Shown: positions 2,389 to 49,714 of the stretch, in pieces
Position numbering within the stretch: position 1 is the stretch's first letter
Layout: each line of letters starts with the position of its first letter
Origin: a phage
DNA length: 64,000 nucleotides
Strand: one strand, 5' to 3'
NCBI GenBank assembly: GCA_033286805.1
Contig: GCA_033286805.1_4727.1
Translations under genes and position numbers: made by a program
The notes under the pieces: model-generated
Database searches by the model: none
The model's input: only the letters and a program-made list of their open reading frames with translations
What the model was told of the DNA's origin: nothing

Positions 2389-2958
2389 TCAACGATTCTT
2401 CATCACTTTACCCAGGCTTTCGATATTATCCCAAAAGCGATTTTTACTTGGCGCATCGCCAACGATAACCGACATCAAATCGCGACGTTCGCGACTGATG
2501 ATGCCCTGTGATTTCCAGATCACCATCGTCCAGCAAGCTGCCAGAACGAACAGATGGTTAATGCTCGGTTTGGTTTGCGCGATGAACGCAAGCCATGCCC
2601 AGATACCGGTGTATACTATCGTCACTAAAAAGAGCGAGATTGTTGCAACGACAACAACGAAGTTTTGGACAGCGGGTTGATTAGCGTTATCATGAATAGC
2701 GGTAAGATCAGGAAGGTTACCTTCAACTGAACTCGTTTCATCGATTTCCAATTCTTCGATTTCTTTTCGTGTGTCGGGAGCTAATCCGGCATCATCAAGA
2801 TGCTTTTTTAACCGCTGTATACTTAATCGTTGACCGACAGGAATGTTGATGTTGTCGTAACTATTAAGCGCATCAACCAGGGAGCGTCCATCAACGAGAA
2901 CCAAGCTCGCGGTACCCATCGTTTGCGGTTTTATTTTGTAAAGGTCTTTTACTTTCAT
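2389..2958 (-). CDS. hypothetical membrane protein
   Basis: 189-aa ORF with hydrophobic C-terminal segments (VVVVATISLFLVTIVYTGIWAWLAFIA, LFVLAACWTMVIW). Confidence 0.45.
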   Translation of the reverse strand: MKVKDLYKIKPQTMGTASLVLVDGRSLVDALNSYDNINIPVGQRLSIQRLKKHLDDAGLAPDTRKEIEELEIDETSSVEGNLPDLTAIHDNANQPAVQNFVVVVATISLFLVTIVYTGIWAWLAFIAQTKPSINHLFVLAACWTMVIWKSQGIISRERRDLMSVIVGDAPSKNRFWDNIESLGKVMKNR

Positions 2959-2979: not shown

Positions 2980-5592
2980 TTAAGCGTCCGGCGTAAAATC
3001 AAAAGGAATGTCCGTACGAATGATATCGTAACGTTTTCCTAGGAAATAAAACTCTTCGGGAACCTGACCAGGAATAATGCTATCGCCGATGAACTGCGGA
3101 TACGCCCAGATGTACTGAGTGAGTCCTTCGAACATATCCAGGTTATTTGCATGGTTACCCATGATACGTTTCCAGAGTTCGCGTTTATACGGTGTTTTAA
3201 CATCGAATCCATAAAGCGGTGCAAGATCTTCACCAGGAACAAATCCCAGGTAATAATGGATCTGACTAACCGGGAAACCAAGCGTATCTCGCGGAATGGT
3301 GATCGCTTGCTCTGCCTTGGTGACATGCGTCTCAATAATCCAGTCGTAGCACTCCGAATAGAACCGGTCGAATTTCTCTGGGTTATACCACGCTTTGGGA
3401 AGATTGAGTTTCTCCGTGAACGCGTTCGACATGATCGTCGGCAAGAACGGAAGAACACCGGTTTTGATCTGCGTGTATTTCGATTTTACCCGATTAACCA
3501 AATTCCAGCAACTGTATCCTAACTGTTCGTTACAAAACTCAACGTAGAGATCGTAGTCACCACCGGATAATGGGTTGTTAATATCACCGATGTCTGCGGC
3601 ATATTTGTTGGGATATCGGTTATTGAAAGCCAGTTTGGTTTGGTAATCGTAGATACACGGTTTGTTGTTCGCTGTATTGATCCACCACCAGGGTTCACCT
3701 ACTTGCACACAAATGTCCTGGACATGGGGGTAGATGATATCAGCAAACGCGGTTAACACATCCCCTAACCACGCCATCGCCTGTTGGTTACATGGAGACA
3801 GCAACCAGGACGGTGGTGTGTATCCGGTTGCTGCGATGTTTCCTTCCCAATCCTGCTGCGCCCACTCGAACGGGCAGGCTGTACTCATCAATTCGTAACT
3901 TAAACTGATGGTGACAGAGAAATGGTGTTTTGCGGCGTATGCAGCGAAAGCTTCATGCCATGCGATACAGGGTGGATTTAATACATCCGTGGTGTTCACC
4001 AGTAACTTACCTGCACTTGGCGTCCAGACAGTATCGTAGAAATGCGACATTCCAACATAGTGCACTAATTCATCCTGATATCCAGCATAAACCAGGTTTT
4101 CAAATACACGCTCTGGCGTGATGTTGTAATGGTCATCATAAGCGGTTATCGCACGAAGTTCGTGTGGCGTACAATGATGGCGATTAACCGTCATTTCCTG
4201 ATACACCCCATCGATAGGAAGAATCTCGAGGGTTAAACCAAGATCGATCGGTGTTTCCAGATAGGTCGTTTCTGTAGCACCTTCTTTATAATGTCGAGAA
4301 CTCATGCTGAACATCAACGACGTTACCGATTCGAGTTCGATAGGCTCGTCAGCATAGAACCCCGCCATTGCGTCATTGAAATCGATCGTTACGATTGCGC
4401 TTCTACCGTCTTCAGAGACATCGGTGGCGTATCGGGTTAATGAGATATACTGACGGCTATCGTCTTTGTGTACGACGGTTAAAACCGGCGGGTTTTCGGT
4501 ATCTGCAAAGTTACGCTGATCGCCAGTAAACGTGATCTTCGCTTTAAAGATCAAACCGAATAACGACGTCATGGGATCATACGCAATACAACCGTGATCC
4601 AGCGTATCCGTTGTCCGCCATTCTATCCCGACCAACCCGTTAGCGGTATGGCATCGCATATACGCATTAAGGACCATGTCTTCACTGACAACCGCGAAGT
4701 TCTCTGTTGACTGACCGTTGATAATCCAATACATCGGTTGCCAGAGGTTACGCGTACCTTTTGCGTAGCGGTAGGTTGGCGCGCCTTTAGGGTTGCCGTT
4801 ATTAAGATGGAATACAGCAGTACCTTGATAATGGTCGTTCGTATTAATCGGAACACTGTAAGCATCACCGAGATCCGTACGTTCCACCTTCTTGACTGTT
4901 GCGTTTTCAAATAACCCACGCAGCGCGGGTAAACCGATATCATCAGGCGCGTTTTCTCGACGAATCGCATCCGCGATGCGGTGGGCTAGGGCGGGGTAAA
5001 TGGTCTCACCCTGTTGTAGGTTTGCAAGACCTACAAAGCGATCGGGAGCGATGCCAGCAATCAATAACTCAACATCACCCTTCGTTCTATCGTCATTAAG
5101 ATATTTCAGTCCGGTAAGGTCAAGATGCTGAATAAGCGACAACAGGTTGTATTTACGGTTTTCAACAGTTAGTACAAGATCGCCTGCCCAAACCAAACTT
5201 CCCTCATCCGCTGTTACTTTAACGGATTGTCGGCCTGTGGTAGACGTTGTTGTCGTTTTATTTAATTGTCCTTGTAGGAAGTCGGTTGCGAGGTCAAAGG
5301 CAATACCGTAACGGTCAGCGACCGCTTGCATGATTTCACGTAACTGGGTATCTTCTTCAATGATAATCTTGACAGGTATTCCCAAGAACGCTTTAGCGAG
5401 GTCTCGTTTAACCAACGAGACGAATACGGATTTGTAGTATCGGCTTCCATCTTTCCCTTTAAAAAGAATGGAGGTTGTTTCGGGTGCCGATAGAACACGT
5501 GCAAATACAACATCGTCGGAAGTAAGAGAAAGTCCGTTTTTCTCGTTGACCAATCTTAGTATTTCATTTTGCGCGGTTTCATGTAACTTCAT
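2980..5592 (-). CDS. putative tail fiber/tailspike-like protein (shared N-terminal module, paralog A)
   Basis: 870 aa; N-terminal ~150 aa (KRDLAKAFLGIPVKI ... ADRYGIAFD) shared with ORFs at 11326, 15669 and 52039; large divergent C-terminus; sits beside the tail fiber genes. Confidence 0.55.
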   Translation of the reverse strand: MKLHETAQNEILRLVNEKNGLSLTSDDVVFARVLSAPETTSILFKGKDGSRYYKSVFVSLVKRDLAKAFLGIPVKIIIEEDTQLREIMQAVADRYGIAFDLATDFLQGQLNKTTTTSTTGRQSVKVTADEGSLVWAGDLVLTVENRKYNLLSLIQHLDLTGLKYLNDDRTKGDVELLIAGIAPDRFVGLANLQQGETIYPALAHRIADAIRRENAPDDIGLPALRGLFENATVKKVERTDLGDAYSVPINTNDHYQGTAVFHLNNGNPKGAPTYRYAKGTRNLWQPMYWIINGQSTENFAVVSEDMVLNAYMRCHTANGLVGIEWRTTDTLDHGCIAYDPMTSLFGLIFKAKITFTGDQRNFADTENPPVLTVVHKDDSRQYISLTRYATDVSEDGRSAIVTIDFNDAMAGFYADEPIELESVTSLMFSMSSRHYKEGATETTYLETPIDLGLTLEILPIDGVYQEMTVNRHHCTPHELRAITAYDDHYNITPERVFENLVYAGYQDELVHYVGMSHFYDTVWTPSAGKLLVNTTDVLNPPCIAWHEAFAAYAAKHHFSVTISLSYELMSTACPFEWAQQDWEGNIAATGYTPPSWLLSPCNQQAMAWLGDVLTAFADIIYPHVQDICVQVGEPWWWINTANNKPCIYDYQTKLAFNNRYPNKYAADIGDINNPLSGGDYDLYVEFCNEQLGYSCWNLVNRVKSKYTQIKTGVLPFLPTIMSNAFTEKLNLPKAWYNPEKFDRFYSECYDWIIETHVTKAEQAITIPRDTLGFPVSQIHYYLGFVPGEDLAPLYGFDVKTPYKRELWKRIMGNHANNLDMFEGLTQYIWAYPQFIGDSIIPGQVPEEFYFLGKRYDIIRTDIPFDFTPDA

Positions 5593-5614: not shown

Positions 5615-6256
5615 TTAAATGTACTGCTTACCGCCCACGAAGGAAGTTAACCAGTTCCCGCTGACGAGTTGTGATACCCAGCCTGGAACGGCTCTACCAT
5701 TCTGGCTCATGATGTTACCACACCAACCAGGGAATCCGGGACGGATGTAATAGAAAGTTAAATTGTAGAGATGGCAATTCCATACCGCAACGTTATGTTT
5801 ACCAGAAACCGCTTTAAAGACAAACGCGACAGGTAACGGAGACGATAACAATTCGGTCACAGGGACGGCTGACCAGTTCGCATTCGCGTTCCATGGCTGC
5901 CAGGTATGGCTACGCGAGTCACCGTTAACGTTACCGTTGCTACCGCGTCCGCCCGCGTTCCACCATAGCGACGGACTCATGTTCTTAAGTGAGGTAAATT
6001 GCTGTGGTGGAATATTCGGAATGATAACAGGGTTGGTACCTTGTCCGTGTTTCTTTTCTTTTGCGTTCACATACCCGCTTATCGATTCCAGGTATTTGGT
6101 ACCAGGATAATTGTTCTGGACTTGTGTCGCAATATCACGAACGTCGAACGTCCAGCAGATCATGGTGTTGTAGTAAGCGTCGGTGTTATCGTGCCATGAG
6201 TTACCATCTTGTAAACGTGCGCCGCTATTCGGTGTTTTATCTGTGCTTATAGCCAT
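5615..6256 (-). CDS. hypothetical protein
   Basis: 213-aa ORF, Trp/Asn/Gly-rich; no motif recognised. Confidence 0.5.
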   Translation of the reverse strand: MAISTDKTPNSGARLQDGNSWHDNTDAYYNTMICWTFDVRDIATQVQNNYPGTKYLESISGYVNAKEKKHGQGTNPVIIPNIPPQQFTSLKNMSPSLWWNAGGRGSNGNVNGDSRSHTWQPWNANANWSAVPVTELLSSPLPVAFVFKAVSGKHNVAVWNCHLYNLTFYYIRPGFPGWCGNIMSQNGRAVPGWVSQLVSGNWLTSFVGGKQYI

Positions 6257-6438: not shown

Positions 6439-6468
6439 GCTCCTCCTTCCCTGACGGGTTGGAGGAGC
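6439..6468. terminator. GC-rich stem-loop
   Basis: GCTCCTCC / GGAGGAGC arms; loop TTCCCTGACGGGTT is the reverse complement of the loop of the hairpin at 41502; immediately after the stop of gene 6477..6983. Confidence 0.35.
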
Positions 6469-6476
6469 ATACTTAA

Positions 6477-6983
6477 TTACTTACTGATAACCTCAACGGA
6501 GTTGGGATCAGCGATCAATGCACGGTCGGTAGAACAATTGAAGAAGACCGTACCAACACCATCACCGTTCGAGTTCAGGGTTGAACTTGCGTAAGACAGG
6601 GTTGGTTTATTCATGCGGTAGAAGCGTTCGCTGGTTGCGGTATTGAACCCCAGGTCAACGTAGTCTTTCACCGTGGTATACAACTGGGTGGACTCGAAAA
6701 CGGTTACCGGAGAGTCGACGGTAAATTGACTGCCTTCGTCCACAACCAGAACTTTATCGTTCCAGATTTCAGTGGTTGAGAACTTCGGTTTCCAATGTTC
6801 GAATTCCTGGGTTGCACCCCAGCAAGAATACACAGCGAGATTGCTGTTCTTCTCGACAGGTTTCAACCCCACCAGTTGTGTCAGGTCTTTATCCAGGTTC
6901 GGTAAACCTTCCAGCGTAGCACACCCACCCAGAGAAAGCACCATTAGCATACCAAGAACGATCGCGCAAAGTTTCTTTGTCAT
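6477..6983 (-). CDS. putative lipoprotein
   Basis: N-terminus MTKKLCAIVLGMLMVLSLGGC has a signal peptide and lipobox-like LGGC; 168 aa. Confidence 0.5.
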   Translation of the reverse strand: MTKKLCAIVLGMLMVLSLGGCATLEGLPNLDKDLTQLVGLKPVEKNSNLAVYSCWGATQEFEHWKPKFSTTEIWNDKVLVVDEGSQFTVDSPVTVFESTQLYTTVKDYVDLGFNTATSERFYRMNKPTLSYASSTLNSNGDGVGTVFFNCSTDRALIADPNSVEVISK

Positions 6984-7024
6984 CGGATTTCCTCATGTGT
7001 TAACGGGAGTGATTTCCATAGTAA

Positions 7025-7441
7025 TTACACAGTTGTAGGAAATTCCGGCCAATCGATATTTGGTGCAGCATCGGTATCGACAGCAGTCACCGCATCAGTG
7101 TAATCCAAAACAGCATTAAGTCGGGTCGTTTCTTCCTGAGTCAGTTTTCGCCCAGCCCGTAATTTTAACTGAATAAGATCGATGGAAGCCAGCGCAGAAT
7201 CAATCAAAGATTGTTTTATCTGTTCTGCCTCGGCGACGAGATCTTCGTGTTGCCGCTCGGGTTCCGGAGGTGCGGTAAACTCACCATTTGAGTATGACCA
7301 ACCTATTCCAGGTGACACAGCCTCCTTATCGTCGATATGAACCAACTGCTGATTGTCGAATATATCGAGCTCTGCTTCACCGTCGTAAACAATCGTGTTT
7401 ACTACCACCCCATTTTCAATAACAGCGTATGATGTACTCAT
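7025..7441 (-). CDS. tail fiber assembly chaperone (Tfa-like)
   Basis: Start taken at internal MSTSYAVIENG (ATG ~7441), abutting the fiber gene stop. C-terminal region (LIQLKLRAGRKLTQEETTRLNAVLDYTDAVTAVD ... IDWPEFP) resembles lambda/P2-type Tfa proteins. Confidence 0.6.
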   Translation of the reverse strand: MSTSYAVIENGVVVNTIVYDGEAELDIFDNQQLVHIDDKEAVSPGIGWSYSNGEFTAPPEPERQHEDLVAEAEQIKQSLIDSALASIDLIQLKLRAGRKLTQEETTRLNAVLDYTDAVTAVDTDAAPNIDWPEFPTTV

Positions 7442-10400
7442 TACATAAACTCCTCGATGATGCAAATCCCATTAGCACCACGCCCACCAGGCTTAGCGGT
7501 TCCTGAGTAAGAGTTATCGTAAGCACCGCCACCACCCGAACCAGGCGCGAGGCCGTTATGGGCGGTGCCAACACCAGCGCGACCGCCACCGCCCCAATAT
7601 GACGCACCCCCACATCCACCGACGGCAAGAGTACCGGCTTGTCCATCGTTACCGTCTCCGCCCGGAATGCGTATATCCCCGGTAGTAGGTACGCCCCCAT
7701 AGCCACCGCCAGTGTTTGTGACAGTTGTTTTTCCTGCGCCTTGCCCGCCGGGAGCAGTTAGCAGGGATGCAAATTTACTATCCCCACCCCCGTTCCCAGA
7801 CGTCGCCCCAGAGCCACCGGAACCACCAGAACCAATTACAACAGAATAACTAGCAGCTGTTACCGTTATAACCGAAATTACTGTTCCGCCAGCGCCTCCC
7901 CCAGCGCCAAAAAACGTTTCGCTGTTGGAATAAGCCTGACAGCCACCGCCGCCACCGCCGCCACCGGTTATTGTTACTCTAATCCGTTTTGTTCCTTGTG
8001 TTGGGGTGTACGTCCCTGACGATGTGAAAACACGCATGTTCAGTAAACGTCCGACATATCCGCTAGAATCGGCTAAACCAAGATCTTTAGCTGCTAACGT
8101 GATATTAGCTGTACCGTCAAACGGTTTACCGTTAATCGTGCGCGCGGTCTGCAACTTCGTCGCCGTTGCTGCGTTTCCTGATGTGTTCTGGTTCCCCGCA
8201 GCGTTAACACCCGGCAGATTGATGTTCGCACTACCGTCGAAAGATACCCCACCAATGGTGCGGGCTGTTTTCAGTTTTGTCGCCGTGGCAGCATTACCGG
8301 TTGTGTCTTGGTTACCGGTGGTGTTTACCCCAGGCAGGTTGATATTTGCCGTTCCGTTAAATGAAACACCGCCAATCGTCCTTGCTGTTTGAAGCCTCGT
8401 CGCGGTAGCGGCGTTACCCGTCGTGTTCTGGTTTCCGGTTGTGTTCACACCAGGGATACTATCTTTCGAGGTGTAGATCTGTGCCCATTCTGACCAGTTC
8501 GAATCGGCCGCATCACGACGTGAACGTAGGTAAGCTGGAGCGTATGCACCTGAGGTACCTGACCACCCAATGAGGATTTCACCTTCACCGACCGATGAAG
8601 CCCCTTTAAGATGAATGACGTTACCATAAGCGGTGGGATACCCGTTATTGTACGCTTCATACATCTGGATGCCCGCATTGCTGCCCTGAGCCGTGTTAGC
8701 TAATGCCGTAACACGACCTTTGGAGGCGAGAGCGGTAATACTGAAGCTAATATCCTTAGTACCGTCAAAGGCGACCCCATTAATCTTCCGTGCTGTTTGG
8801 AGTTTCGTGGCGGTAGCCGCATTACCAGAGGTACTCTGATTACCTGCTTTGTTCACGCCAGGCAAATCAATGTTGGCTGTTCCATCAAAGGACACGCCCC
8901 CTATGGTTCTCGCTGTCTGGAGTTTTGTTGCTGAGCCAGCGTTTCCGGAAGTGCTTTGATTACCTGCCGCGTTGACACCTGGTAGGTTAATGCTAGCAGA
9001 GCCATCAAAAGAAACTCCACCGATCGTGATTGGTGTTTTCAATTTCGTGGCTGTCGCAGCATTACCCGTCGTATTCTGATTGCCAGCCGCATTAACGCCT
9101 GGTAATGCGATATCGGTCGTACCATCGAACGCGACACCACCGATTTTACGGGCAGTCTGTAGCTTGGTCGCTGTAGCCGCGTTGCCGCTGGTATTTTGCG
9201 TGCCCGCTTTATTTACGCCTGGTAAATCAATGTTCGCAGTACCATCAAAAGAAACACCCCCGATGGTTCTCGCGGTCTCAAGTTTGGTTGCGCTTCCTGC
9301 GTTTCCGCTGGTGTCTTGGTTTCCCGCTGCATCAACACCCGGTAGACTGATGCTGGCCGAACCATCGAAACTCACACCACCGATCGTAACAGCGGTTTTC
9401 AATTTCGTAGCGGTTGCAGCGTTCCCCGTGGTATTTTGGTTACCTGTCGCATTCACACCCGGTAATGCAATATCCGCTGTTCCGTCAAAGGCAACGCCAC
9501 CGATTCTACGTGCAGTTTGTAGCTTGGTTGCACTAGCAGCGTTACCGCTGGTATTCTGGGTGCCAGCTTTGTTAACACCAGGGAGATCGATGTTAGCAGA
9601 ACCATCGAAGCTAACGCCACCTATCGTTCTTGCAGTAGCAAGTTTAGCTGCTGTAGCAGCGGCGTTACCGACTTTTAACCATTCGCCCCATGGACCATCC
9701 TGGCCGTTCCATGATGCCGTTAAACTACGTACGTAAATATTGCCGGTACATACAGTGTAACGTTGCGTTCCACCGAATTGCCCGGTTGGGAGCACTTCAA
9801 TGTAACCTGCGGCATTTGCTTCAGGGAAATTGTGGGCGACGTCCGCGTTCGTTGATACTGGTTTAGACCAAATACCCACAGACGCTTCAACCGGACCGTA
9901 CGTATTCAGATTTGCGTCGGTGGGAAGTTGTCCTCGAAAACGCTGGAATTGTGTTGCCGATAACCCCAACGTTGTTTGCATGCTTTCAATGCTGGATTGC
10001 TGAAGTAACGTCCGTGCTGTCGACGTAATCACGGTAAGCGCAACTTTATTAACACCGGTGAAATACGGGAGTTTGTCTGCTGATGTCGCTAAACCTGAAA
10101 AGGCGGTCAGTAATGCGTTAAGGGGCTGCTTCCCAGCTAACGCATTTGTTACCGTCGTTGCGAAATTAGGATCACTTCCTATAGCTCGAGCCAGCTTATT
10201 AAGCGTATTTAGCGTCGCTGGTGACGAGTCGATCAGCGCCGTGATCGCACGCATCACAAATTCCGTGTTGGCTATCTGTCGACTGCTATTGTTAACTGCT
10301 GCGGTGGGCGCTGCTGGCGTACCAGTGAATACAGGGCTATTAAGATCCGCCTTGAGGGCGATGAGACGTTTAAGCGCTTCAACATCAACTTTCAGGTTTT

Positions 10401-11319
10401 CCCATCCGATGAGAGAACCACCACTGTTGGTATGATAACGGTTGTACCAGAAGTCACCGTTAACGCCAAAAAAGAATATACATTTCTCTTCGTTTTGTGG
10501 ACCGGAACTATTTCGTGATGAGTCGATATATTTGATTTCAATAAGACCGCTAAACACCACTCCTGGGATTATATTGTTGTCTCCAGCTGATTGTGATACT
10601 TGGTACATCCCCGGGGTTGCAGCTTTAACCCACGTTAAGAATTCTGTTACTCCAGCGTTACCGCTGAAACGCTTAACGTCGGTAAGTATCGCCCCATAAC
10701 CGAACATACCGGGTAAAGCAACTCGCCCATCGGTACGGTCACGAATATCTGTTGCAACAACAGGCAATTGTTTACGAACGGCATTAACCGCTTTAGGCGT
10801 GGCCGATTTTGTCTCGTCGTCGCTATCGGTTTCATTACTTAGAATAGTTAAACCGCGTGTAGTAGTAGTTGCATCAGGAAGAAATGCGTTATCCAACACC
10901 TTAAGCTGTACTGCACTCGTATTACTAACAACGACATGCACTTGACAGTTAAGAACGCTGGTTGCGCCTTCGGCAGGCGTAGGCTTATATCTTTCTGGTG
11001 CACTGCAGACGGCAATCAGAACACCTTGGTCGTCATACAGACCGATCTCACGTACCCAGAACCCACCTTGACCAGCAGGAATAATACCCTCAACGATAAT
11101 CCTAGTTGTGCTATCACCATCCGCATGGATATTAGAAACTTCCCCACGATAAACTTCGTGAACAAGCGCTGTTTGGCTGGCGGTAGGGGTTGGGATCGAG
11201 CCGTTACCATCACCAACGGCAAAGTGTGTGATTTTTAGTTTCTCACCGTCGGGAAGTAACGCAGCGGTGATACGTTCTGCTCCTTTATCGGTAACTACCG
11301 TTATATATGCTGTACTCAT
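7441..11319 (-). CDS. long tail fiber protein
   Basis: 1292 aa. N-terminal tail-fiber/collar-like domain (PTPTASQTALVHEVYRGE); eleven 39-aa tandem repeats; C-terminal polyglycine-rich region (GGGGGGGG ... GGGAGG). Confidence 0.75.
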   Translation of the reverse strand: MSTAYITVVTDKGAERITAALLPDGEKLKITHFAVGDGNGSIPTPTASQTALVHEVYRGEVSNIHADGDSTTRIIVEGIIPAGQGGFWVREIGLYDDQGVLIAVCSAPERYKPTPAEGATSVLNCQVHVVVSNTSAVQLKVLDNAFLPDATTTTRGLTILSNETDSDDETKSATPKAVNAVRKQLPVVATDIRDRTDGRVALPGMFGYGAILTDVKRFSGNAGVTEFLTWVKAATPGMYQVSQSAGDNNIIPGVVFSGLIEIKYIDSSRNSSGPQNEEKCIFFFGVNGDFWYNRYHTNSGGSLIGWENLKVDVEALKRLIALKADLNSPVFTGTPAAPTAAVNNSSRQIANTEFVMRAITALIDSSPATLNTLNKLARAIGSDPNFATTVTNALAGKQPLNALLTAFSGLATSADKLPYFTGVNKVALTVITSTARTLLQQSSIESMQTTLGLSATQFQRFRGQLPTDANLNTYGPVEASVGIWSKPVSTNADVAHNFPEANAAGYIEVLPTGQFGGTQRYTVCTGNIYVRSLTASWNGQDGPWGEWLKVGNAAATAAKLATARTIGGVSFDGSANIDLPGVNKAGTQNTSGNAASATKLQTARRIGGVAFDGTADIALPGVNATGNQNTTGNAATATKLKTAVTIGGVSFDGSASISLPGVDAAGNQDTSGNAGSATKLETARTIGGVSFDGTANIDLPGVNKAGTQNTSGNAATATKLQTARKIGGVAFDGTTDIALPGVNAAGNQNTTGNAATATKLKTPITIGGVSFDGSASINLPGVNAAGNQSTSGNAGSATKLQTARTIGGVSFDGTANIDLPGVNKAGNQSTSGNAATATKLQTARKINGVAFDGTKDISFSITALASKGRVTALANTAQGSNAGIQMYEAYNNGYPTAYGNVIHLKGASSVGEGEILIGWSGTSGAYAPAYLRSRRDAADSNWSEWAQIYTSKDSIPGVNTTGNQNTTGNAATATRLQTARTIGGVSFNGTANINLPGVNTTGNQDTTGNAATATKLKTARTIGGVSFDGSANINLPGVNAAGNQNTSGNAATATKLQTARTINGKPFDGTANITLAAKDLGLADSSGYVGRLLNMRVFTSSGTYTPTQGTKRIRVTITGGGGGGGGCQAYSNSETFFGAGGGAGGTVISVITVTAASYSVVIGSGGSGGSGATSGNGGGDSKFASLLTAPGGQGAGKTTVTNTGGGYGGVPTTGDIRIPGGDGNDGQAGTLAVGGCGGASYWGGGGRAGVGTAHNGLAPGSGGGGAYDNSYSGTAKPGGRGANGICIIEEFM
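8095..8454 (-). repeat. second block of the same 117-bp coding repeat, ~3 copies
   Basis: Fiber residues ~956-1075 repeat the same 39-aa unit after an intervening non-repeat domain. Confidence 0.6.
8740..9663 (-). repeat. in-frame tandem coding repeats, ~8 x 117 bp, inside the tail fiber gene
   Basis: Repeated unit encodes IGGVSFDGSANIDLPGVNKAGTQNTSGNAATATKLQTAR. The same periodicity produces spurious antisense ORFs at 9080..9736. Confidence 0.7.
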
Positions 11320-11325
11320 GGTGTT

Positions 11326-11853
11326 TTATCCTGGATAAATAGTGATGATATCACCAATGACGGTTGTGGCACCGGCGTAAAGATGAGCCGGAGATACATC
11401 ATGTTGGTTTGTCACAGTAAGATCCAATCGACCACGCCAAACCATGGAGGTATTCGCGATGGGGATAGAAATCTTTTTGGATATATCGTCACGAAAATCA
11501 ATAACAGTGGCAAGGGTAACCGCATCAAAATCAACATCGGGATCAAAGACGAACCCGTATTGATCTGAAATCGCCCGAATAATGGCATGTATAGTTGTTG
11601 TCTCAACAGACTCTAAAACGATTTTTACCGGTATTCCTAAAAATGCCTTCGCGATATCGCGTCGGGCGTAAACGATAAAGCATTCACCGCACCACTTTGT
11701 TCCTTCATTTGCTGTGACGATCACTTTTGCCCTGTTAGCACCAGAACTCCCATCCAAGGTTAATGTAAGATCGGAGTTGCTGAACACGCTACCGTTACGT
11801 TGGTTTATCAACGTAATCAGTTCGTCTTTCCATGGTGGGTAAAGTGAACGCAT
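11326..11853 (-). CDS. short paralog carrying only the shared N-terminal fiber/spike module (paralog B)
   Basis: Start set at MRSLYPPWKDEL (ATG verified at 11851-11853) by alignment with the other three paralogs; contains ARRDIAKAFLGIPVKI ... SDQYGFVFD. Confidence 0.5.
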   Translation of the reverse strand: MRSLYPPWKDELITLINQRNGSVFSNSDLTLTLDGSSGANRAKVIVTANEGTKWCGECFIVYARRDIAKAFLGIPVKIVLESVETTTIHAIIRAISDQYGFVFDPDVDFDAVTLATVIDFRDDISKKISIPIANTSMVWRGRLDLTVTNQHDVSPAHLYAGATTVIGDIITIYPG

Positions 11854-16635: not shown

Positions 16636-17211
16636 TTAGTAAGGAATCAGATCGTTAAGCTTTTCTTCTTCAACGACAAAGAAGTTGTTCTGGTCGTCTA
16701 AATCTGTTAACAGGACTTGTCCGACAGTAAAGCAGGTGCCGCCCTTCTTAGGTATCCATACCGGCTCATTCGTTACCTTATCGGGATACCATTTGAAACG
16801 ATTGGTATCCAAGAAGAACGCTGCTTTGTTCGCTTTATCGGTTGAACGATAGCTAACCAACGCAGGCCACTCAATCCAGGTGTTTGTGCATGGTACATGT
16901 AAAGGATACCATGCGCGCCAGCGTTTGCCTGGGTTGCTAGGATCAACCCAATACTCGGCAGTCAATACAGCATCTTTATAATGTTTCTGCATTAACATTT
17001 CGAGCACAAGCTCATTACCTTTTGATGCATCTAAAGTCACTTCCGTCATATAAAGAGATTTAGGTAACTCAGACTGTTTTGCGGGTGTTACAACACCGGT
17101 AACCAACGGTCTGCTCGGTTTACGTTTCTGTTCTTTCCGACGTGTGTAAAAGAATAGTCCGACAGATACAGCAACAAGTACAATAAACAACACTACCTTA
17201 ATCCAATTCAT
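16636..17211 (-). CDS. hypothetical membrane-anchored protein
   Basis: N-terminal hydrophobic helix MNWIKVVLFIVLVAVSVGLFFY then basic stretch; 191 aa. Confidence 0.5.
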   Translation of the reverse strand: MNWIKVVLFIVLVAVSVGLFFYTRRKEQKRKPSRPLVTGVVTPAKQSELPKSLYMTEVTLDASKGNELVLEMLMQKHYKDAVLTAEYWVDPSNPGKRWRAWYPLHVPCTNTWIEWPALVSYRSTDKANKAAFFLDTNRFKWYPDKVTNEPVWIPKKGGTCFTVGQVLLTDLDDQNNFFVVEEEKLNDLIPY

Positions 17212-18473: not shown

Positions 18474-18971
18474 TTACGTGTGTCGTCGTTTACCAAAGAA
18501 AATGTGGCTGTCTACCACGGTGATATTGGTAGCATGTTTTCTGAAATGTTTAGGGCGAAGATGTTTCGCGTTAAAGAATACGGCTCCTCGTGTTGGGTCG
18601 GCTTTATGGTAAGCCGCAATGTCAGTATAACGTAATGTTGCGACCTCTCGTGCTATTGCTCTTGCTCGCTCAAAAGCAGCATGATCGCGTATGACAATAC
18701 GCCTTTGTTTTGTCCAGGGGAATTGACCTCTTTGCAGTACGACGTCTCTGACGTTCGTAGGGAATCGGTAGTCCATAGATCGATTATGTATTAAAAACGC
18801 CACGGAGTATTGCCCTTTTACAGATTCGCCTCTGGCTTCCATATACACCGCACATGCGACGATCTCTTTCCGGCAATCGATTCTAGGCCCTGCGTTCACT
18901 GATGCTTGACTGAACGGTGTAATAAGCAGCATAACAAGCCCTAAAATCAACGTGTGTAAAATACCTTGCAT
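18474..18971 (-). CDS. SleB-like cell wall hydrolase with signal peptide (candidate endolysin)
   Basis: N-terminal signal sequence MQGILHTLILGLVMLLITPFSQA; motif ACAVYMEARGESVKGQYSVAFLIHNR resembles the SleB/Hydrolase_2 family. Confidence 0.6.
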   Translation of the reverse strand: MQGILHTLILGLVMLLITPFSQASVNAGPRIDCRKEIVACAVYMEARGESVKGQYSVAFLIHNRSMDYRFPTNVRDVVLQRGQFPWTKQRRIVIRDHAAFERARAIAREVATLRYTDIAAYHKADPTRGAVFFNAKHLRPKHFRKHATNITVVDSHIFFGKRRHT

Positions 18972-19223: not shown

Positions 19224-19544
19224 TTAACCTCTACCGTCGAGCCATAGGTTGTATTTATCCCGAATGTACGGATCACGATAAATACGTCGATAGACTTGAT
19301 GCGGTATAAACTTGCAATGTACGAGTTCGTCGCTTAATTTATGCCGTCGCTCCATACCGTTGTGAATACGACGTATCTCCCGGATATTAAAGGTTGTTTT
19401 ATTCAAGAGAATAGACATAATGGCGGATCGATGATCCAGATTAAAGATCGCCATCACGCTTCGTATCTCGCGTAAAACAACTTCTCTATCGACAAGGATG
19501 CGATTAGTTAACTTAAGATTCTCCGTGATACCCATAACCTTCAT
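19224..19544 (-). CDS. hypothetical protein
   Basis: ORF 19224..19628; start probably at an internal Met because the upstream ORF overlaps. Confidence 0.3.
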   Translation of the reverse strand: MKVMGITENLKLTNRILVDREVVLREIRSVMAIFNLDHRSAIMSILLNKTTFNIREIRRIHNGMERRHKLSDELVHCKFIPHQVYRRIYRDPYIRDKYNLWLDGRG

Positions 19545-19884
19545 CCTCGACACGTCGACACATCGGTAAAAATAAACACCAGCTTGTTGCACTGAGGATC
19601 GCCGTTGCGATGATATTTGCGATATCACTCAATCGAGCATCGGCTTGCCACATAACAAGCATGAAAAGAACGTACGCGAACCCATACACGACAAACCGTC
19701 TGATGTTACGCGTCGACCACGTACAAATATACAAAAGGGGAAGCTGCCCTATAACACAAACGATGGTTCGGATAACGTAATAAACGCGTTCCGTCGTTGT
19801 TTCAAAATCGATATTCGTTGCAGAAATCCCAATCATTATAAAAGTGAAAATGAAATAGATTTTTGCGTATGTCTTTAAACTCAT
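19513..19884 (-). CDS. hypothetical membrane protein
   Basis: 123 aa with several hydrophobic segments (IYFIFTFIMIGISA; VYGFAYVLFMLVMW). Confidence 0.45.
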   Translation of the reverse strand: MSLKTYAKIYFIFTFIMIGISATNIDFETTTERVYYVIRTIVCVIGQLPLLYICTWSTRNIRRFVVYGFAYVLFMLVMWQADARLSDIANIIATAILSATSWCLFLPMCRRVEDEGYGYHGES

Positions 19885-20098: not shown

Positions 20099-20268
20099 CT
20101 CCTTCTTACTTTTTCTGATAAAGCGATGATTCAAATTTTAGAAACACCGCTAACGCGAATGCGAGTAATAACGCACGTACCCACATACCTCCTTGACAAC
20201 TGTTGTACAACATAAAGACCAGAGCAATGCCGCCCATATGTAGGCGGCACTTATCGAACAATGTTGGT

Positions 20269-20496
20269 TTATACATAAGAGATTAAACGTTGAATGATTT
20301 TTACTTTGCCTTTACCTGGACCTTTCTTGCGGCGATTCAACAGTCGGATACTGTTTCCAGTTACGGTGTCGCCATCATAATCAGCCCGGAACTGTGATAA
20401 AAAAGCAGGCTGTATCGGATCGACACCAGGATTGCTGTGGAAAGGATTGAGACTTAAAAGAGGGTTAGCTGGAATCATCGTATTGTCCTTACTCAA
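20269..20496 (-). CDS. small protein with KKGPGKGK basic motif
   Basis: 75-aa ORF; C-terminal RRKKGPGKGKVK matches the motif seen in three tandem small ORFs at 37615-38182. Confidence 0.35.
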   Translation of the reverse strand: MSKDNTMIPANPLLSLNPFHSNPGVDPIQPAFLSQFRADYDGDTVTGNSIRLLNRRKKGPGKGKVKIIQRLISYV

Positions 20497-20847
20497 TTAT
20501 TTACCCAGATAGAGATATTCACCGCCCTGAACAACACCGGTTGCAGGATCAACAAGTATACGAACCCGCGCGTAGGTCTTGAAAGAGGGGTTGAAAACTT
20601 CGAAGTCTGCCACTTTCAATTTCACGCTGGGGTTGGTAGGGTTCTTAACTCCGGGAAGTTCTTTCGGGGTACCGAAATCAACACCGCATTCTTCAAGGTC
20701 TGCTGGCGTCATGCTCTCCATGGCCATGTAGATTGCTTTCGCTTTATCGTAAACTTCTGGGCTATCCAGCAATCCAGCCTGCGCTGAACCGACAACACTA
20801 CCGAACAGAATAGCAACAGCAACAAACAATTTAGTTAACGTTTTCAT
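20497..20847 (-). CDS. hypothetical secreted protein
   Basis: Signal peptide MKTLTKLFVAVAILFGSVVGSAQA; 116 aa. Confidence 0.5.
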   Translation of the reverse strand: MKTLTKLFVAVAILFGSVVGSAQAGLLDSPEVYDKAKAIYMAMESMTPADLEECGVDFGTPKELPGVKNPTNPSVKLKVADFEVFNPSFKTYARVRILVDPATGVVQGGEYLYLGK

Positions 20848-21747: not shown

Positions 21748-21772
21748 TCACCTAGGTAATATAGCCGTGAAA
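21748..21772. promoter_or_regulatory. conserved 25-bp intergenic motif, copy 1
   Basis: CACCTAGGTAATATAGCCGTGAAA, near-identical to the motif at 49690-49714; 66-90 nt upstream of minus gene start 21682; adjacent to hairpin GGTGAAGC..GCTTCACC. Confidence 0.3.
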
Positions 21773-41179: not shown

Positions 41180-41479
41180 TTACTGAAACAAGACATTAAA
41201 TTCGACGAGATACCCATCGGATCTATCACCACGATATCTGTTGCAGAAAACACCGAATTTCATCAAAAACACACATAACTCTTCGGCTTTGTATAGCGGA
41301 ATACGATTTTCGTCGAGCAGGGGGCACTTATGGCTAACCCGCTCCGACGAATCAACACAACACAAATAAAGAAGGAACCGAACGATGGCTCGGTTCTTAG
41401 TGAAGCTCTCGAATTCACCTGCGGTTCTGAACTCATCGAGGAGCTTTGTCGTTTTCTTCAATCGTTCACGATCAAGCAT
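41180..41479 (-). CDS. hypothetical protein
   Basis: Track start is a TTG inside the hairpin; ATG at 41477-41479 (MLDRERLKK) preceded by GAGG. Confidence 0.45.
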   Translation of the reverse strand: MLDRERLKKTTKLLDEFRTAGEFESFTKNRAIVRFLLYLCCVDSSERVSHKCPLLDENRIPLYKAEELCVFLMKFGVFCNRYRGDRSDGYLVEFNVLFQ

Positions 41480-41501: not shown

Positions 41502-41533
41502 CCCTCCTCCAACCCGTCAGGGAAGGAGGAGGG
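41502..41533. terminator. GC-rich nested stem-loop
   Basis: CCCTCCTCC / GGAGGAGGG 9-bp stem around loop AACCCGTCAGGGAA; near-copy of the element at 1956..1987; TTATGTT follows on the minus strand. Confidence 0.45.
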
Positions 41534-45238: not shown

Positions 45239-46195
45239 TTAATGCAAGACACGATCTGCTGGAATTATCGAGGCATTGCTGTCGGACAGATTCGTCGCTT
45301 TACGATCAGGACTGAATCGACGAGCGTTCTCTTCATGGTAGTTGACGGGGTTATCCTGTTTTAACAGTTCCATTGCCTCATCAAACGTTAGTTCCCGAAA
45401 TCCTCTTGGATAGAGGAACAGGGGTTCATCAACATCCAGCCCTTTAACAAACCCGTGTGACAACCAGACGCTACCATCAGCACTGTAAAGAACCGGCTCA
45501 ACGTCATAATCCAAGACGTATTGATACCAGTAATTAAACAGTTGGGCGATCCATCGATTACGTAATAAATAATCGATTACAACCGCACTACGCACGCTGT
45601 GGCACCAGCCGATCTTACCATCAACTTTCTGCAACAACGTACCCTCATTTGCTTGATGAATAACCGCATTAAATAACCACGCGAGATCGGTTGCGAAAAG
45701 TGCGGCTTCTTGAATATCGCTAATGTAACGCACGGGTATCGTCAGATGCGTGCGGTAATGCGACATCGCCTCTTCGTAGTTGTCTCCTTCGATGCAGAGA
45801 GTCCCGTTTGGTGACAGATGTCCCTGATTCAACGACTGACCAATATAAAGATCAGCGATCGCGTTAATATATTCGACGGTGCCCAAGGTTAACTCAGACA
45901 TAAAAGAATCGACATCAACAGCCATCGATGTGCTGGAAACAAACGGATTGGTTGGGCGAGTTGTATTAGAGAAAATAATCGACCAAATCGCTTCGTGTTT
46001 TTCATCCGATGGCATAAACGAAATATGGCGTTCCGCGCTATTATCGACAACAAATACCTTTACGGTTTTCAAGCAGTTAGTACAAACATAGCACGTGTTC
46101 GGCAACGGCATATCCGAAAACATATCGTAACGAATAGATGCCAGCGAAATGTCATGTCCGCAATGAGGGCATGTCGTATCAATAAGCGTTTTCAT
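45239..46195 (-). CDS. hypothetical protein with N-terminal Cys4 zinc-ribbon-like motif
   Basis: CPHCGHD ... CYVCTNC near the N-terminus; 318 aa. Confidence 0.5.
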   Translation of the reverse strand: MKTLIDTTCPHCGHDISLASIRYDMFSDMPLPNTCYVCTNCLKTVKVFVVDNSAERHISFMPSDEKHEAIWSIIFSNTTRPTNPFVSSTSMAVDVDSFMSELTLGTVEYINAIADLYIGQSLNQGHLSPNGTLCIEGDNYEEAMSHYRTHLTIPVRYISDIQEAALFATDLAWLFNAVIHQANEGTLLQKVDGKIGWCHSVRSAVVIDYLLRNRWIAQLFNYWYQYVLDYDVEPVLYSADGSVWLSHGFVKGLDVDEPLFLYPRGFRELTFDEAMELLKQDNPVNYHEENARRFSPDRKATNLSDSNASIIPADRVLH

Positions 46196-49689: not shown

Positions 49690-49714
49690 TCACGTAAGTA
49701 ATATAGCCGTGAAA
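49690..49714. promoter_or_regulatory. conserved 25-bp intergenic motif, copy 2
   Basis: TCACGTAAGTAATATAGCCGTGAAA in the divergent region between minus gene start 49649 and plus gene start 49858; matches 21748..21772. Confidence 0.3.

What the first reader, a model, noticed from the sequence alone, without database searches (positions are those of the whole stretch)
6477..6983. Lipoprotein gene embedded in the tail fiber module
A signal-peptide/lipobox protein is encoded between the Tfa gene and the tailspike-like gene. In T5 the receptor-blocking lipoprotein Llp is encoded next to the receptor-binding protein gene, so this could be an analogous superinfection-exclusion or receptor-masking factor, though it is larger (168 aa) and has no obvious sequence similarity.
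Basis: inference. Interest (0 to 1): 0.45.

Follow-up and report, generated by a model that had tools for sequence, protein, structure and literature searches.

The report
Conserved jumbo-phage outer-membrane lipoprotein gene
The gene is real and encodes the only lipoprotein of a Goslar-like nucleus-forming jumbo phage. It belongs to a small family of unknown function found in related giant phages, and it is a stable backbone gene, not a partner of the neighbouring tail fibre as Llp is in phage T5.

Summary
The window is about 95% identical to E. coli jumbo phage Goslar. The ORF at 6477-6983 (minus strand, 168 aa) is Goslar gp088. It has a textbook lipoprotein signal (MTKKLCAIVLGMLMVLSLGG|C, Cys21, no Asp at +2) and a GAGGA ribosome site.

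It belongs to a narrow family (phrog_9559) of about 37 clusters, all from roughly 240-kb phages of the Goslar, SPN3US and Erwinia groups. The lipobox is kept in 31 of 32 aligned members and two further cysteines are invariant. dN/dS is 0.03-0.09. The predicted mature protein is a flexible tether plus a small beta-barrel with no significant relative among solved structures.

The Llp analogy is weak:
- The lipoprotein evolves like backbone genes (86% identity where the fibre tip and its chaperone are replaced).
- In six other phages examined it lies next to head-protein and endolysin genes, not fibre genes.
- Goslar's receptor in genetic screens is the LPS core, with no protein receptor found.
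- The upstream motif is the late-type TATG, not the early TATATTAC.
- The SPN3US homologue is absent from the virion.
- SPN3US-type phages also carry a separate spanin-like pair, so this is probably not an o-spanin.

Function stays unproven. My best guess is that it binds a conserved periplasm-facing envelope component late in infection.

The parts
6477..6983 (-). Lipoprotein CDS (168 aa plus stop), orthologue of Goslar gp088 and member of phrog_9559
   Evidence: ORF list. 98.8% identity to Goslar. phrog_9559 at E=3e-20. dN/dS 0.03-0.09.
6924..6983 (-). Signal peptide, residues 1-20 (n-region MTKK, hydrophobic core)
   Evidence: Hydropathy and the PS51257-type pattern.
6921..6932 (-). Lipobox L18-G19-G20-C21. 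Cys21 is the predicted lipidated first residue of the mature protein, and residue +2 is Ala
   Evidence: L18, G20 and C21 are kept in at least 90% of 32 members. No member has Asp at +2.
6849..6920 (-). Predicted flexible tether, residues 22-45
   Evidence: AF2 pLDDT 45-61 over residues 19-45. The segment varies in length between clades.
6519..6848 (-). Predicted antiparallel beta-barrel domain, residues 46-155
   Evidence: AF2 block pLDDT 79-94 over residues 41-150, with nine strands. Only weak, generic barrel matches among solved structures.
6822..6824 (-). Invariant Cys54, in the first barrel strand
   Evidence: Invariant in 32 of 32 members. Strand E50-62.
6534..6536 (-). Invariant Cys150, in the last barrel strand; inferred disulfide partner of Cys54
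   Evidence: Invariant in 32 of 32 members. Strand E142-151. The disulfide itself is inferred, not shown.
6990..6994 (-). Shine-Dalgarno GAGGA, 6 nt before the ATG
   Evidence: Read from the sequence.
7017..7020 (-). TATG motif (ACTATGGAAATC), 37 nt before the ATG and 5 nt after the Tfa stop; candidate late-type (nvRNAP) promoter and start site
   Evidence: TATGG(G/A)AA is conserved in the window, Goslar, L006 and L007. TATGAC is present in six SPN3US-type and Erwinia phages. The same motif lies upstream of Goslar late genes. phiKZ late promoters use TATG with the G as +1 (PMC4666361).
6439..6468 (-). GC-rich hairpin 8 nt after the stop codon; probable terminator or 3' end of the transcription unit
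   Evidence: Fold of -28.3 kcal/mol, z = -3.2. An equivalent hairpin follows the gene in all ten other loci inspected (Goslar, L006-L008 and six annotated phages). An identical 28-nt copy lies at 41504-41531.
7025..7441 (-). Context: tail-fibre assembly protein (Caudo_TAP), 138 aa from the ATG start
   Evidence: Pfam PF02413 at 7.7e-21. Matches Goslar gp089.
7441..11319 (-). Context: long tail fibre (P1 gpS-like N-terminus, repeats, Gly-rich C-terminus)
   Evidence: Pfam Phage_tail_fib, Phage_fiber_2 and Gly_rich_2. Only 83% identical to Goslar gp090.
5615..6256 (-). Context: 213-aa ORF between the lipoprotein and the 870-aa gene; no family match
   Evidence: Its conserved C-terminus is shared with a 255-aa protein in L008.
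2980..5592 (-).
   Evidence: Pfam.

Best explanation
What it is (high confidence). This is a conserved accessory gene of one branch of nucleus-forming jumbo phages: the Goslar-like, SPN3US-like and several Erwinia genera. [quoted passage not shown] A tether of about 25 residues holds a soluble, acidic beta-barrel of about 110 residues in the periplasm. An invariant Cys54-Cys150 pair probably staples the barrel's first and last strands. The protein is not built into virions. It appears to be transcribed from its own late-type TATG promoter and to end at a hairpin terminator. It is a backbone gene that happens to sit inside the variable adhesin and fibre region; it is not part of the swappable fibre cassette.

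How it most likely works (inferred, low confidence). The tethered barrel binds a conserved periplasm-facing envelope component shared by E. coli, Salmonella and Erwinia. Alternatively it binds a conserved part of the jumbo-phage penetration machinery. Either way the infected cell, and later its debris, would stop supporting productive DNA delivery by related phages. The logic is Llp-like or Ltp-like, but the mechanism is independent of the fibre receptor and does not mask a receptor.
For: Lipoprotein signal and conservation:
- Pattern match, Cys21 and the ribosome site.
- Lipobox kept in 31 of 32 members; Cys54 and Cys150 invariant; no Asp at +2.

Real, constrained and narrowly distributed:
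- dN/dS of 0.026-0.091, matching the endolysin's 0.086.
- 37 clusters in 5.8e9 proteins.
- 15 representatives in 1.84e9 proteins, the readable ones all from jumbo-phage-sized contigs.

Fold:
- AF2 core pLDDT of about 90, all-beta.
- Its closest predicted-structure neighbours are family members and other phage 'lipoproteins'.

Not in the virion: SPN3US gp159 is missing from the 86-protein virion list, although its neighbours gp157 and gp160 are there.

Own transcription unit: a TATG motif upstream in 10 of 11 loci and a hairpin downstream in 11 of 11. The early motif TATATTAC is found upstream of chimallin instead, and TATGG or TATGAC upstream of capsid and sheath genes.

Backbone behaviour: lipoprotein identity tracks the endolysin and other backbone genes, while the fibre, Tfa and p213 are exchanged.

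Not the spanin: SPN3US has a separate pair of an N-terminal-TMD protein plus an LLTGC lipoprotein at 180017-180976. That lipoprotein occurs in 73 phage records and coexists with this family in every listed lineage checked.

Precedent: the characterised non-spanin outer-membrane lipoproteins of coliphages (Llp, Cor) are exclusion proteins that act from the periplasmic face (PMC9586334).
Against: - No experiment and no identified binding partner.
- A late-type promoter is an odd fit for exclusion. Llp is made early.
- The family is absent from phiKZ-like chimalliviruses, which have homologous tails.
- In SPN3US-type and Erwinia phages the gene lies 1-3 kb from the endolysin cluster. Goslar has no other lipoprotein and no recognisable spanin pair. 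A lysis-related role is therefore a serious alternative.
- The timing inference rests on a 4-6 nt motif, by analogy with phiKZ.
Confidence: 0.3

Rival explanations
1. Llp- or Cor-type receptor masking matched to the neighbouring tail fibre. The lipoprotein would bind the fibre's outer-membrane receptor from the periplasm and make it unrecognisable.
For: - It is an outer-membrane lipoprotein whose cysteine pair brackets the folded domain, as in Llp (PMC9586334).
- In the window, Goslar and L008 it lies directly downstream of the fibre and its chaperone.
Against: - Goslar's screens hit only LPS-core genes and no outer-membrane protein.
- The lipoprotein stays 86% identical while the fibre tip and chaperone are replaced.
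- It is not next to a fibre gene in the six other phages examined.
- The mature protein is 148 aa, against 61 aa for Llp.
- No sequence or fold match to Llp or Cor.
- Late-type promoter motif.
Confidence: 0.07
2. Lysis or egress accessory. A late outer-membrane lipoprotein would help to breach or loosen the outer membrane, or would regulate lysis timing, possibly replacing the missing spanin in Goslar-type phages.
For: - Late-type TATG motif.
- It is the only lipoprotein in Goslar, and no i-/o-spanin pair was found there.
- In SPN3US-type and Erwinia phages it lies within 1-3 kb of a GH108 endolysin, a tiny TMD ORF and, in some, an M15-like peptidase.
- Periplasmic cysteines are typical of o-spanins (PMC6139136).
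Against: - No adjacent or overlapping i-spanin in any lineage, although the o-spanin gene is 'invariably' next to the i-spanin gene (PMC12894885).
- It is a folded barrel with 4% Pro, not a short Pro-rich or unstructured o-spanin.
- It coexists with a separate spanin-like pair in every SPN3US-type or Erwinia lineage checked.
- In the window the endolysin and holin-like cluster is about 12 kb away. Goslar's GH108-type endolysin is about 80 kb away.
Confidence: 0.2
3. Periplasmic inhibitor of a peptidoglycan hydrolase, an MliC/PliC-like barrel with a T4 Spackle-like role. It would neutralise the tail lysozyme of superinfecting phages or restrain the phage's own secreted endolysin.
For: - MliC is itself an outer-membrane lipoprotein (my own knowledge).
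- The window endolysin has an N-terminal signal or SAR-like segment.
- Goslar gp204 carries a lysozyme-like domain.
Against: - Foldseek-PDB finds no inhibitor.
- No Pfam or PDB sequence signal for MliC or PliC.
- From memory, the conserved residues do not resemble the MliC/PliC loop motifs.
- The endolysin type differs between lineages (Hydrolase_2 versus GH108) while the lipoprotein is conserved.
Confidence: 0.1
4. Not a functional gene: a chance ORF or a decaying remnant.
For: None beyond the lack of any database annotation.
Against: Strong purifying selection, conservation across genera at about 30% identity with an intact lipobox, and a ribosome site, promoter motif and terminator.
Confidence: 0.01

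Closest known systems
T5 Llp and the Cor family (small superinfection-exclusion lipoproteins of coliphages)
   Same: A phage-encoded outer-membrane lipoprotein with an intramolecular cysteine pair bracketing the folded part. It is non-virion and, in this phage, encoded downstream of a receptor-binding fibre and its chaperone. The general logic, a periplasm-facing protein acting on the envelope, is plausible.
   Different: - The mature protein is 148 aa against 61 aa.
- No sequence or fold similarity.
- It does not co-vary with the fibre, and in the six other phages examined it is not adjacent to a fibre gene.
- The phage's receptor is the LPS core, not a TonB-dependent transporter.
- Late-type rather than early expression signals.
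o-spanins (lambda Rz1, phiKZ gp141.1)
   Same: An outer-membrane lipoprotein made late, with periplasmic cysteines. phiKZ's o-spanin is also fairly long at 120 codons.
   Different: No neighbouring i-spanin. It is predicted to be a folded barrel with low proline content. It coexists with a separate spanin-like pair in SPN3US-type and Erwinia phages.
MliC/PliC lysozyme inhibitors (and, by function, T4 Spackle)
   Different: The similarity is no better than to many unrelated barrels. There is no sequence signal, and no activity has been tested.
Ltp of Streptococcus phage TP-J34
   Same: A lipoprotein thought to block DNA injection by acting on the incoming phage's tail machinery and not on the receptor. 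That is the receptor-independent logic proposed here.
   Different: It comes from a prophage of a Gram-positive host, has an unrelated helical fold, and is expressed from the prophage. This comparison rests on my own knowledge and was not tested here.

Membership tests
Bacterial-type lipoprotein (SPase II / Lgt substrate) | Positively charged n-region, hydrophobic core, and a lipobox [LVI][ASTVI][GAS]C with Cys at position 15-35 | tested here: met
   MTKK + AIVLGMLMVLSL + GGC. The PS51257-type pattern matches with Cys21. The lipobox is kept in 31 of 32 homologues. SignalP and LipoP were not available.
Bacterial-type lipoprotein (SPase II / Lgt substrate) | Outer-membrane sorting: no Asp at +2 (E. 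coli Lol-avoidance rule) | tested here: met
   Residue +2 is Ala in the window and A, S, K, V, T or Q in the rest of the family, never Asp. The rule itself is established knowledge.
Bacterial-type lipoprotein (SPase II / Lgt substrate) | Actual lipidation and globomycin-sensitive processing | not testable with these tools
   Needs labelling and fractionation experiments.
Llp/Cor superinfection-exclusion lipoproteins | Sequence or fold similarity to Llp or Cor | tested here: not met
Llp/Cor superinfection-exclusion lipoproteins | Small size (about 60-80 aa mature) | tested here: not met
   The mature protein is 148 aa, against 61 aa for Llp (PMC9586334).
Llp/Cor superinfection-exclusion lipoproteins | Encoded directly downstream of the receptor-binding protein and exchanged together with it | tested here: not met
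   It lies downstream of the fibre and chaperone in the window, Goslar and L008. It stays at backbone-level identity while the fibre tip and chaperone are swapped, and it is not next to a fibre gene in the six other phages examined.
Llp/Cor superinfection-exclusion lipoproteins | The phage uses an outer-membrane protein receptor that can be clamped from the periplasm | tested here: not met
   The Goslar RB-TnSeq screens hit only LPS-core genes, and the receptor is assigned as LPS GluII. Caveat: essential outer-membrane proteins are invisible to such screens.
Llp/Cor superinfection-exclusion lipoproteins | Early expression | tested here: inconclusive
   Upstream there is a late-type TATG motif and no TATATTAC early motif. 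This is an inference from motifs, and no transcript data were available.
Llp/Cor superinfection-exclusion lipoproteins | Confers resistance or blocks adsorption when expressed | not testable with these tools
   Needs an experiment.
Two-component spanin, o-spanin subunit | Gene embedded in, overlapping or immediately after an i-spanin gene (N-terminal TMD plus a coiled-coil periplasmic domain) | tested here: not met
   The neighbours are Tfa and a 213-aa protein without a TMD. No such partner exists in SPN3US, Kwan, ChrisDB, Asesino, SPAsTU or Huxley.
Two-component spanin, o-spanin subunit | Short, largely unstructured, often proline-rich periplasmic part | tested here: not met
   Six Pro in 148 residues (4%), and a confident nine-strand barrel model.
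Two-component spanin, o-spanin subunit | It is the phage's lipoprotein for outer-membrane disruption, with no other candidate | tested here: inconclusive
   Goslar has no other lipoprotein and no spanin pair was found. SPN3US and relatives have a separate spanin-like pair as well as this family.
Unimolecular spanin (T1 gp11 type) | N-terminal lipobox plus a C-terminal transmembrane domain | tested here: not met
   The only hydrophobic segment is residues 1-27.
MliC/PliC lysozyme inhibitors | Significant sequence or structure match to the family | tested here: inconclusive
DUF2846 (annotation given to one homologue, pEa_SNUABM_43) | Pfam match | tested here: not met
   None of the 32 members hits DUF2846 even at E <= 10. 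The label appears only in one GenBank record.

The most novel reading that the evidence does not exclude
Goslar-type nucleus-forming phages may have no spanin at all. Their single, strongly conserved barrel lipoprotein could then be a new kind of envelope effector. One possibility is a spanin-independent factor for outer-membrane disruption or egress. Another is an exclusion protein that jams a conserved essential outer-membrane machine (such as LptD or BamA) or the jumbo-phage penetration apparatus, independently of the fibre receptor.
Probability: 0.15. Interest if true: 0.7.

Novelty: new variant of a known kind. Interest (0 to 1): 0.4.

Why it matters
How nucleus-forming jumbo phages interact with the host envelope is poorly understood, whether in entry, exclusion or lysis. 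The 2026 review of jumbo phages read here mentions no lipoprotein, spanin or superinfection exclusion at all.

This gene is the only lipoprotein Goslar encodes. It is under selection as strong as the endolysin's, and it defines a family restricted to one branch of these phages. It is also a small target that can be expressed or knocked down on its own. Testing it would show one of two things. Either these phages practise receptor-independent exclusion, or Goslar, which lacks a recognisable spanin pair, breaches the outer membrane in another way.

The result also carries a caution for annotation. A lipoprotein gene next to a tail fibre is not automatically an Llp analogue.

Tried and rejected
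- Pfam, NCBIfam and PADLOC scans of the protein gave nothing. A Pfam scan of all 32 members at E <= 10 gave only noise and a weak LPAM_1 hit.
- A profile search against PDB sequences gave nothing meaningful.
- An exhaustive HMM search of 1.84e9 representatives found no bacterial relatives, only the same phage family.
- I considered the conserved 189-aa two-TMD protein (2389-2958) as a membrane partner, because it lies directly after the lipoprotein in L006. I rejected it because its homologues occur in chimalliviruses that lack the lipoprotein and are absent from the SPN3US type.
- I considered gp094 (16636-17211, N-terminal TMD) as an i-spanin. I rejected it because of the strongly positive stretch after the TMD and because it is not adjacent.
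- The 39-aa lipobox ORF at 45388-45507 is embedded out of frame in a gene without a TMD. I judged it a chance match.
- The sigma-70 promoter scan found nothing, and it is not relevant to a phage that uses its own RNA polymerases.
- Literature searches found no functional data for Goslar gp088 or SPN3US gp159. The SPN3US infection time-course proteome (J Virol 2019) is not held.

Full report
**Source and observation.** The window is a close relative of Escherichia phage vB_EcoM_Goslar, a nucleus-forming jumbo phage of the Chimalliviridae. Identity is 95% over the first 25 kb. The ORF named in the finding is exactly at 6477-6983 on the minus strand, has 168 codons, and corresponds to Goslar gp088, annotated 'hypothetical protein'.

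Its N-terminus, MTKKLCAIVLGMLMVLSLGG|CATLEG, has every element of a lipoprotein signal:
- two lysines;
- a hydrophobic core;
- an L-G-G-C lipobox with Cys21 that matches the PROSITE-type rule;
- Ala at +2;
- a GAGGA ribosome site 6 nt before the ATG.

It is the only convincing lipobox ORF in the 64-kb window. Its Goslar homologue is the only annotated lipoprotein CDS in 234.9 kb of that genome. One correction to the finding: a 213-aa ORF (5615-6256) lies between this gene and the 870-aa protein. Pfam scores the 870-aa protein as DUF7941 + NCTSP_N + TIM-barrel_NCTSP, not as a tailspike.

**The gene family.**
- Pfam, NCBIfam and PADLOC return nothing. PHROGs places the protein in phrog_9559, of unknown function.
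- tblastn finds 55 phage records, all jumbo phages of about 200-250 kb infecting Escherichia, Salmonella, Erwinia or Proteus, at about 30% identity outside Goslar.
- A profile search of 5.8e9 proteins finds 37 clusters. An exhaustive HMM search of 1.84e9 representatives finds only 15. No bacterial relatives were found.
- In a 32-sequence alignment the lipobox is kept in 31. The exception is a 471-bp Proteus contig.
- Cys54 and Cys150 are invariant, as are Y52, D82, G84, R120, Y122, S134, G140 and G142. No member has Asp at +2.
- dN/dS is 0.026-0.091. That equals the endolysin (0.086) and is far below Tfa (0.36).

The gene is therefore real and strongly constrained.

**Structure.**
- AlphaFold2 on the alignment gives a mean pLDDT of 76.5, with the core (residues 45-155) near 90. 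The model has a signal helix, a low-confidence tether (residues 19-45) and nine beta-strands.
- Cys54 lies in the first strand and Cys150 in the last. A disulfide closing the barrel is a reasonable inference but is not shown.
- Foldseek against the PDB is not significant: best E is 5e-3 and TM is at most 0.35, with LolA, Alt a 1 and lipocalins on top.
- In BFVD the neighbours are family members and a few other phage 'lipoproteins'.
- Llp appears in none of these lists.

The fold is a generic small barrel and does not assign a function.

**Context across phages.** On the minus strand of the window the order is:
- fibre (7441-11319);
- Tfa (7025-7441);
- lipoprotein;
- p213;
- the DUF7941 TIM-barrel protein.

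Three Goslar-like metagenome loci show the same gene inside a hypervariable block. The block holds DUF7941-N-terminal proteins with different C-terminal domains (LRR_5, DUF285/BspA, TIM barrel) and different fibres.

The lipoprotein itself behaves like a backbone gene. "-" means no figure was obtained for that pair.

| Comparison with the window | Lipoprotein | Endolysin | Fibre | Tfa / chaperone | Other genes |
|---|---|---|---|---|---|
| Goslar | 98.8% | - | 83% | 92% | - |
| L008 | 86% | 88% | only the first 183 aa shared | different family (DUF4376) | p213 38% |
| L006 / L007 | 49-50% | 46% (L006) | - | - | p189 43-44% |

In SPN3US, Kwan, ChrisDB, Asesino, SPAsTU and Huxley the homologue is a single gene. 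It is transcribed divergently from one to four gp160-like (DUF7941-related) genes. It sits 1-3 kb from a GH108 endolysin, a tiny TMD ORF and a DUF1353 protein.

SPN3US gp160 is a capsid protein present in more than 300 copies, and gp157 is also a head protein (PMC5694885). The homologue gp159 (SPN3US_0159) is absent from the 86-protein virion list.

**Expression signals.**
- A strong GC-rich hairpin starts 8 nt after the stop codon (6439-6468; -28 kcal/mol, z = -3.2).
- An equivalent hairpin, often followed by a T-run, follows the gene in all ten other loci inspected.
- Upstream, the six SPN3US-type and Erwinia phages all carry TATGAC 42-64 nt before the ATG, inside intergenic regions of about 125 nt.
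- The window, Goslar, L006 and L007 carry TATGG(G/A)AA 37-40 nt before the ATG. L008 has only a 16-nt gap and no such motif.
- In phiKZ, TATG with the G as +1 defines late promoters of the non-virion RNA polymerase (PMC4666361).
- In Goslar the same motif precedes the major head, sheath and other virion genes.
- The early gene for chimallin is preceded instead by GGTTATATTACCTAGGTGAA. TATATTAC occurs ten times in Goslar, always on the minus strand. It occurs at 21756 and 49698 in the window, and not near the lipoprotein gene.

The inference is that the gene is a late-type transcription unit of its own. This rests on motifs, not on transcript data.

**Testing the Llp analogy.** Llp is 61 aa when mature. 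It is made early, is encoded next to pb5, and clamps the periplasmic face of FhuA (PMC9586334). Here the facts differ:
- the mature protein is 148 aa;
- it is unrelated to Llp in sequence and fold;
- it does not co-vary with the fibre;
- in the six other phages examined it is not next to a fibre gene;
- its expression signals are of the late type.

Most tellingly, two replicate genome-wide transposon screens with Goslar recovered only LPS-core genes (galU, hldE, waaC/F/G/O/P/Q/Y, rfaH). The receptor was assigned as the LPS outer core (GluII) and no outer-membrane protein was hit (bioRxiv 10.64898/2026.04.02.716166). A periplasm-facing lipoprotein cannot mask a sugar on the outer leaflet. The caveat is that essential outer-membrane proteins cannot be scored in such screens.

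**Testing the spanin alternative.**
- phiKZ has an overlapping i-/o-spanin pair beside its holin and endolysin, and the o-spanin gene is always next to the i-spanin gene (PMC12894885; PMC6139136).
- The window gene has no such neighbour in any lineage. It is a folded barrel with 4% proline and has no C-terminal TMD.
- A scan of the SPN3US genome found a second lipoprotein (LLTGC, 159 aa, 9% Pro). It lies 10 nt after a 156-aa protein with an N-terminal TMD, at 180017-180976, which is the topology of a separated spanin pair.
- That lipoprotein occurs in 73 phage records, including every SPN3US-type or Erwinia lineage checked that carries the family studied here. It is absent from Goslar.

The family therefore coexists with a probable spanin and is unlikely to be one. 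Goslar has no recognisable spanin pair, so a non-canonical lysis role in that clade cannot be dismissed.

The window's lysis-like cluster is about 12 kb away. It comprises:
- a signal- or SAR-bearing Hydrolase_2 endolysin (18474-18971);
- a 3-TMD protein (19513-19884);
- small TMD proteins;
- a secreted 116-aa protein.

**Conclusion.** With high confidence, this is a conserved, probably late-expressed, non-virion outer-membrane lipoprotein with a tethered periplasmic barrel. It is a backbone gene of one branch of the Chimalliviridae. What it does is not known.

I rank the explanations as follows:
- 0.30: a receptor-independent block of entry or a guard against re-adsorption, by binding a conserved envelope or penetration component;
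- 0.20: a lysis or egress accessory role;
- 0.10: a peptidoglycan-hydrolase inhibitor;

The remaining probability is for functions not foreseen here. Simple expression and knock-down experiments would separate these.

Noticed in passing
window 6440-6467 (+) and 41504-41531 (-): An identical 28-nt GC-rich palindromic element, CTCCTCCTTCCCTGACGGGTTGGAGGAG, occurs twice in opposite orientation (0 expected by chance). One copy lies just after the lipoprotein gene and the other upstream of the gene at 41180-41479. Many intergenic hairpins in the window are followed directly by (T)TATG, which suggests terminator-promoter junctions.
   Followed up: partly
window 21756-21766 and 49698-49708 (- strand); Goslar 172971 region: GGCTATATTAC lies in two intergenic regions. 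The same motif (GGTTATATTACCTAGGTGAA) precedes Goslar chimallin. TATATTAC occurs 10 times in Goslar, always on the minus strand. It is a candidate early (virion RNA polymerase) promoter consensus for Goslar-type phages.
   Followed up: partly
window 2980-5592, 11326-11853; loci L007 3084-7520, 8098-9912, 10623-12341; L008 3180-4934: A DUF7941 N-terminal module stands alone (175 aa) or is fused to very different C-terminal domains (TIM barrel, LRR_5, DUF285/BspA-like). The related SPN3US protein gp160 is a head protein present in more than 300 copies. These could be capsid-anchored fibres or adhesins with exchangeable tips.
   Followed up: partly
window 5615-6256: This 213-aa ORF matches no family. 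Its C-terminal ~40 residues (GFPGW.GNIMSQNG.AVPGWVSQLV.GNWLTSFVGGKQY) are conserved in a 255-aa protein of L008, while the rest is only about 38% identical. It sits in the fibre region and could be a fibre accessory or tip protein.
   Followed up: no
window 18474-18971, 19513-19884, 20106-20276, 20497-20847: A lysis-like cluster: a Hydrolase_2 (SleB-like) endolysin with an N-terminal signal or SAR-like hydrophobic segment, a 3-TMD protein, a small TMD protein, and a secreted 116-aa protein with a classic AQA| cleavage site. No spanin pair was found beside it or elsewhere in Goslar.
   Followed up: partly
SPN3US NC_027402 180017-180976 (locus L020 30017-30976): An unannotated spanin-like pair: a 156-aa protein with an N-terminal TMD, followed 10 nt later by a 159-aa LLTGC lipoprotein (phrog_8719 and phrog_8165, both 'unknown function'). 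The lipoprotein is conserved in 73 phage records of the SPN3US, Erwinia and CR5 groups but not in Goslar.
   Followed up: partly
window 2389-2958: A 189-aa protein with a ~95-aa N-terminal soluble part and two TMDs is 100% identical to Goslar gp085. Homologues occur in other chimalliviruses (PCH45, PhiEaH1, Moabite), usually next to thymidylate kinase. Its topology recalls holins with a large cytoplasmic domain.
   Followed up: partly
window 7441-11319 versus Goslar gp090: The long tail fibre is only 83% identical to Goslar's and differs in length (1292 versus 1324 aa), while the flanking genes are 98-100% identical. This points to local mosaicism in the repeat-rich fibre and its Tfa (92%).
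   Followed up: no
window 45388-45507: A 39-aa ORF with a lipobox (LMVASGC) is embedded out of frame in a 318-aa zinc-finger-like gene. It is conserved in Goslar only because the host gene is conserved, and the host gene has no TMD. It is probably a chance match.
   Followed up: yes
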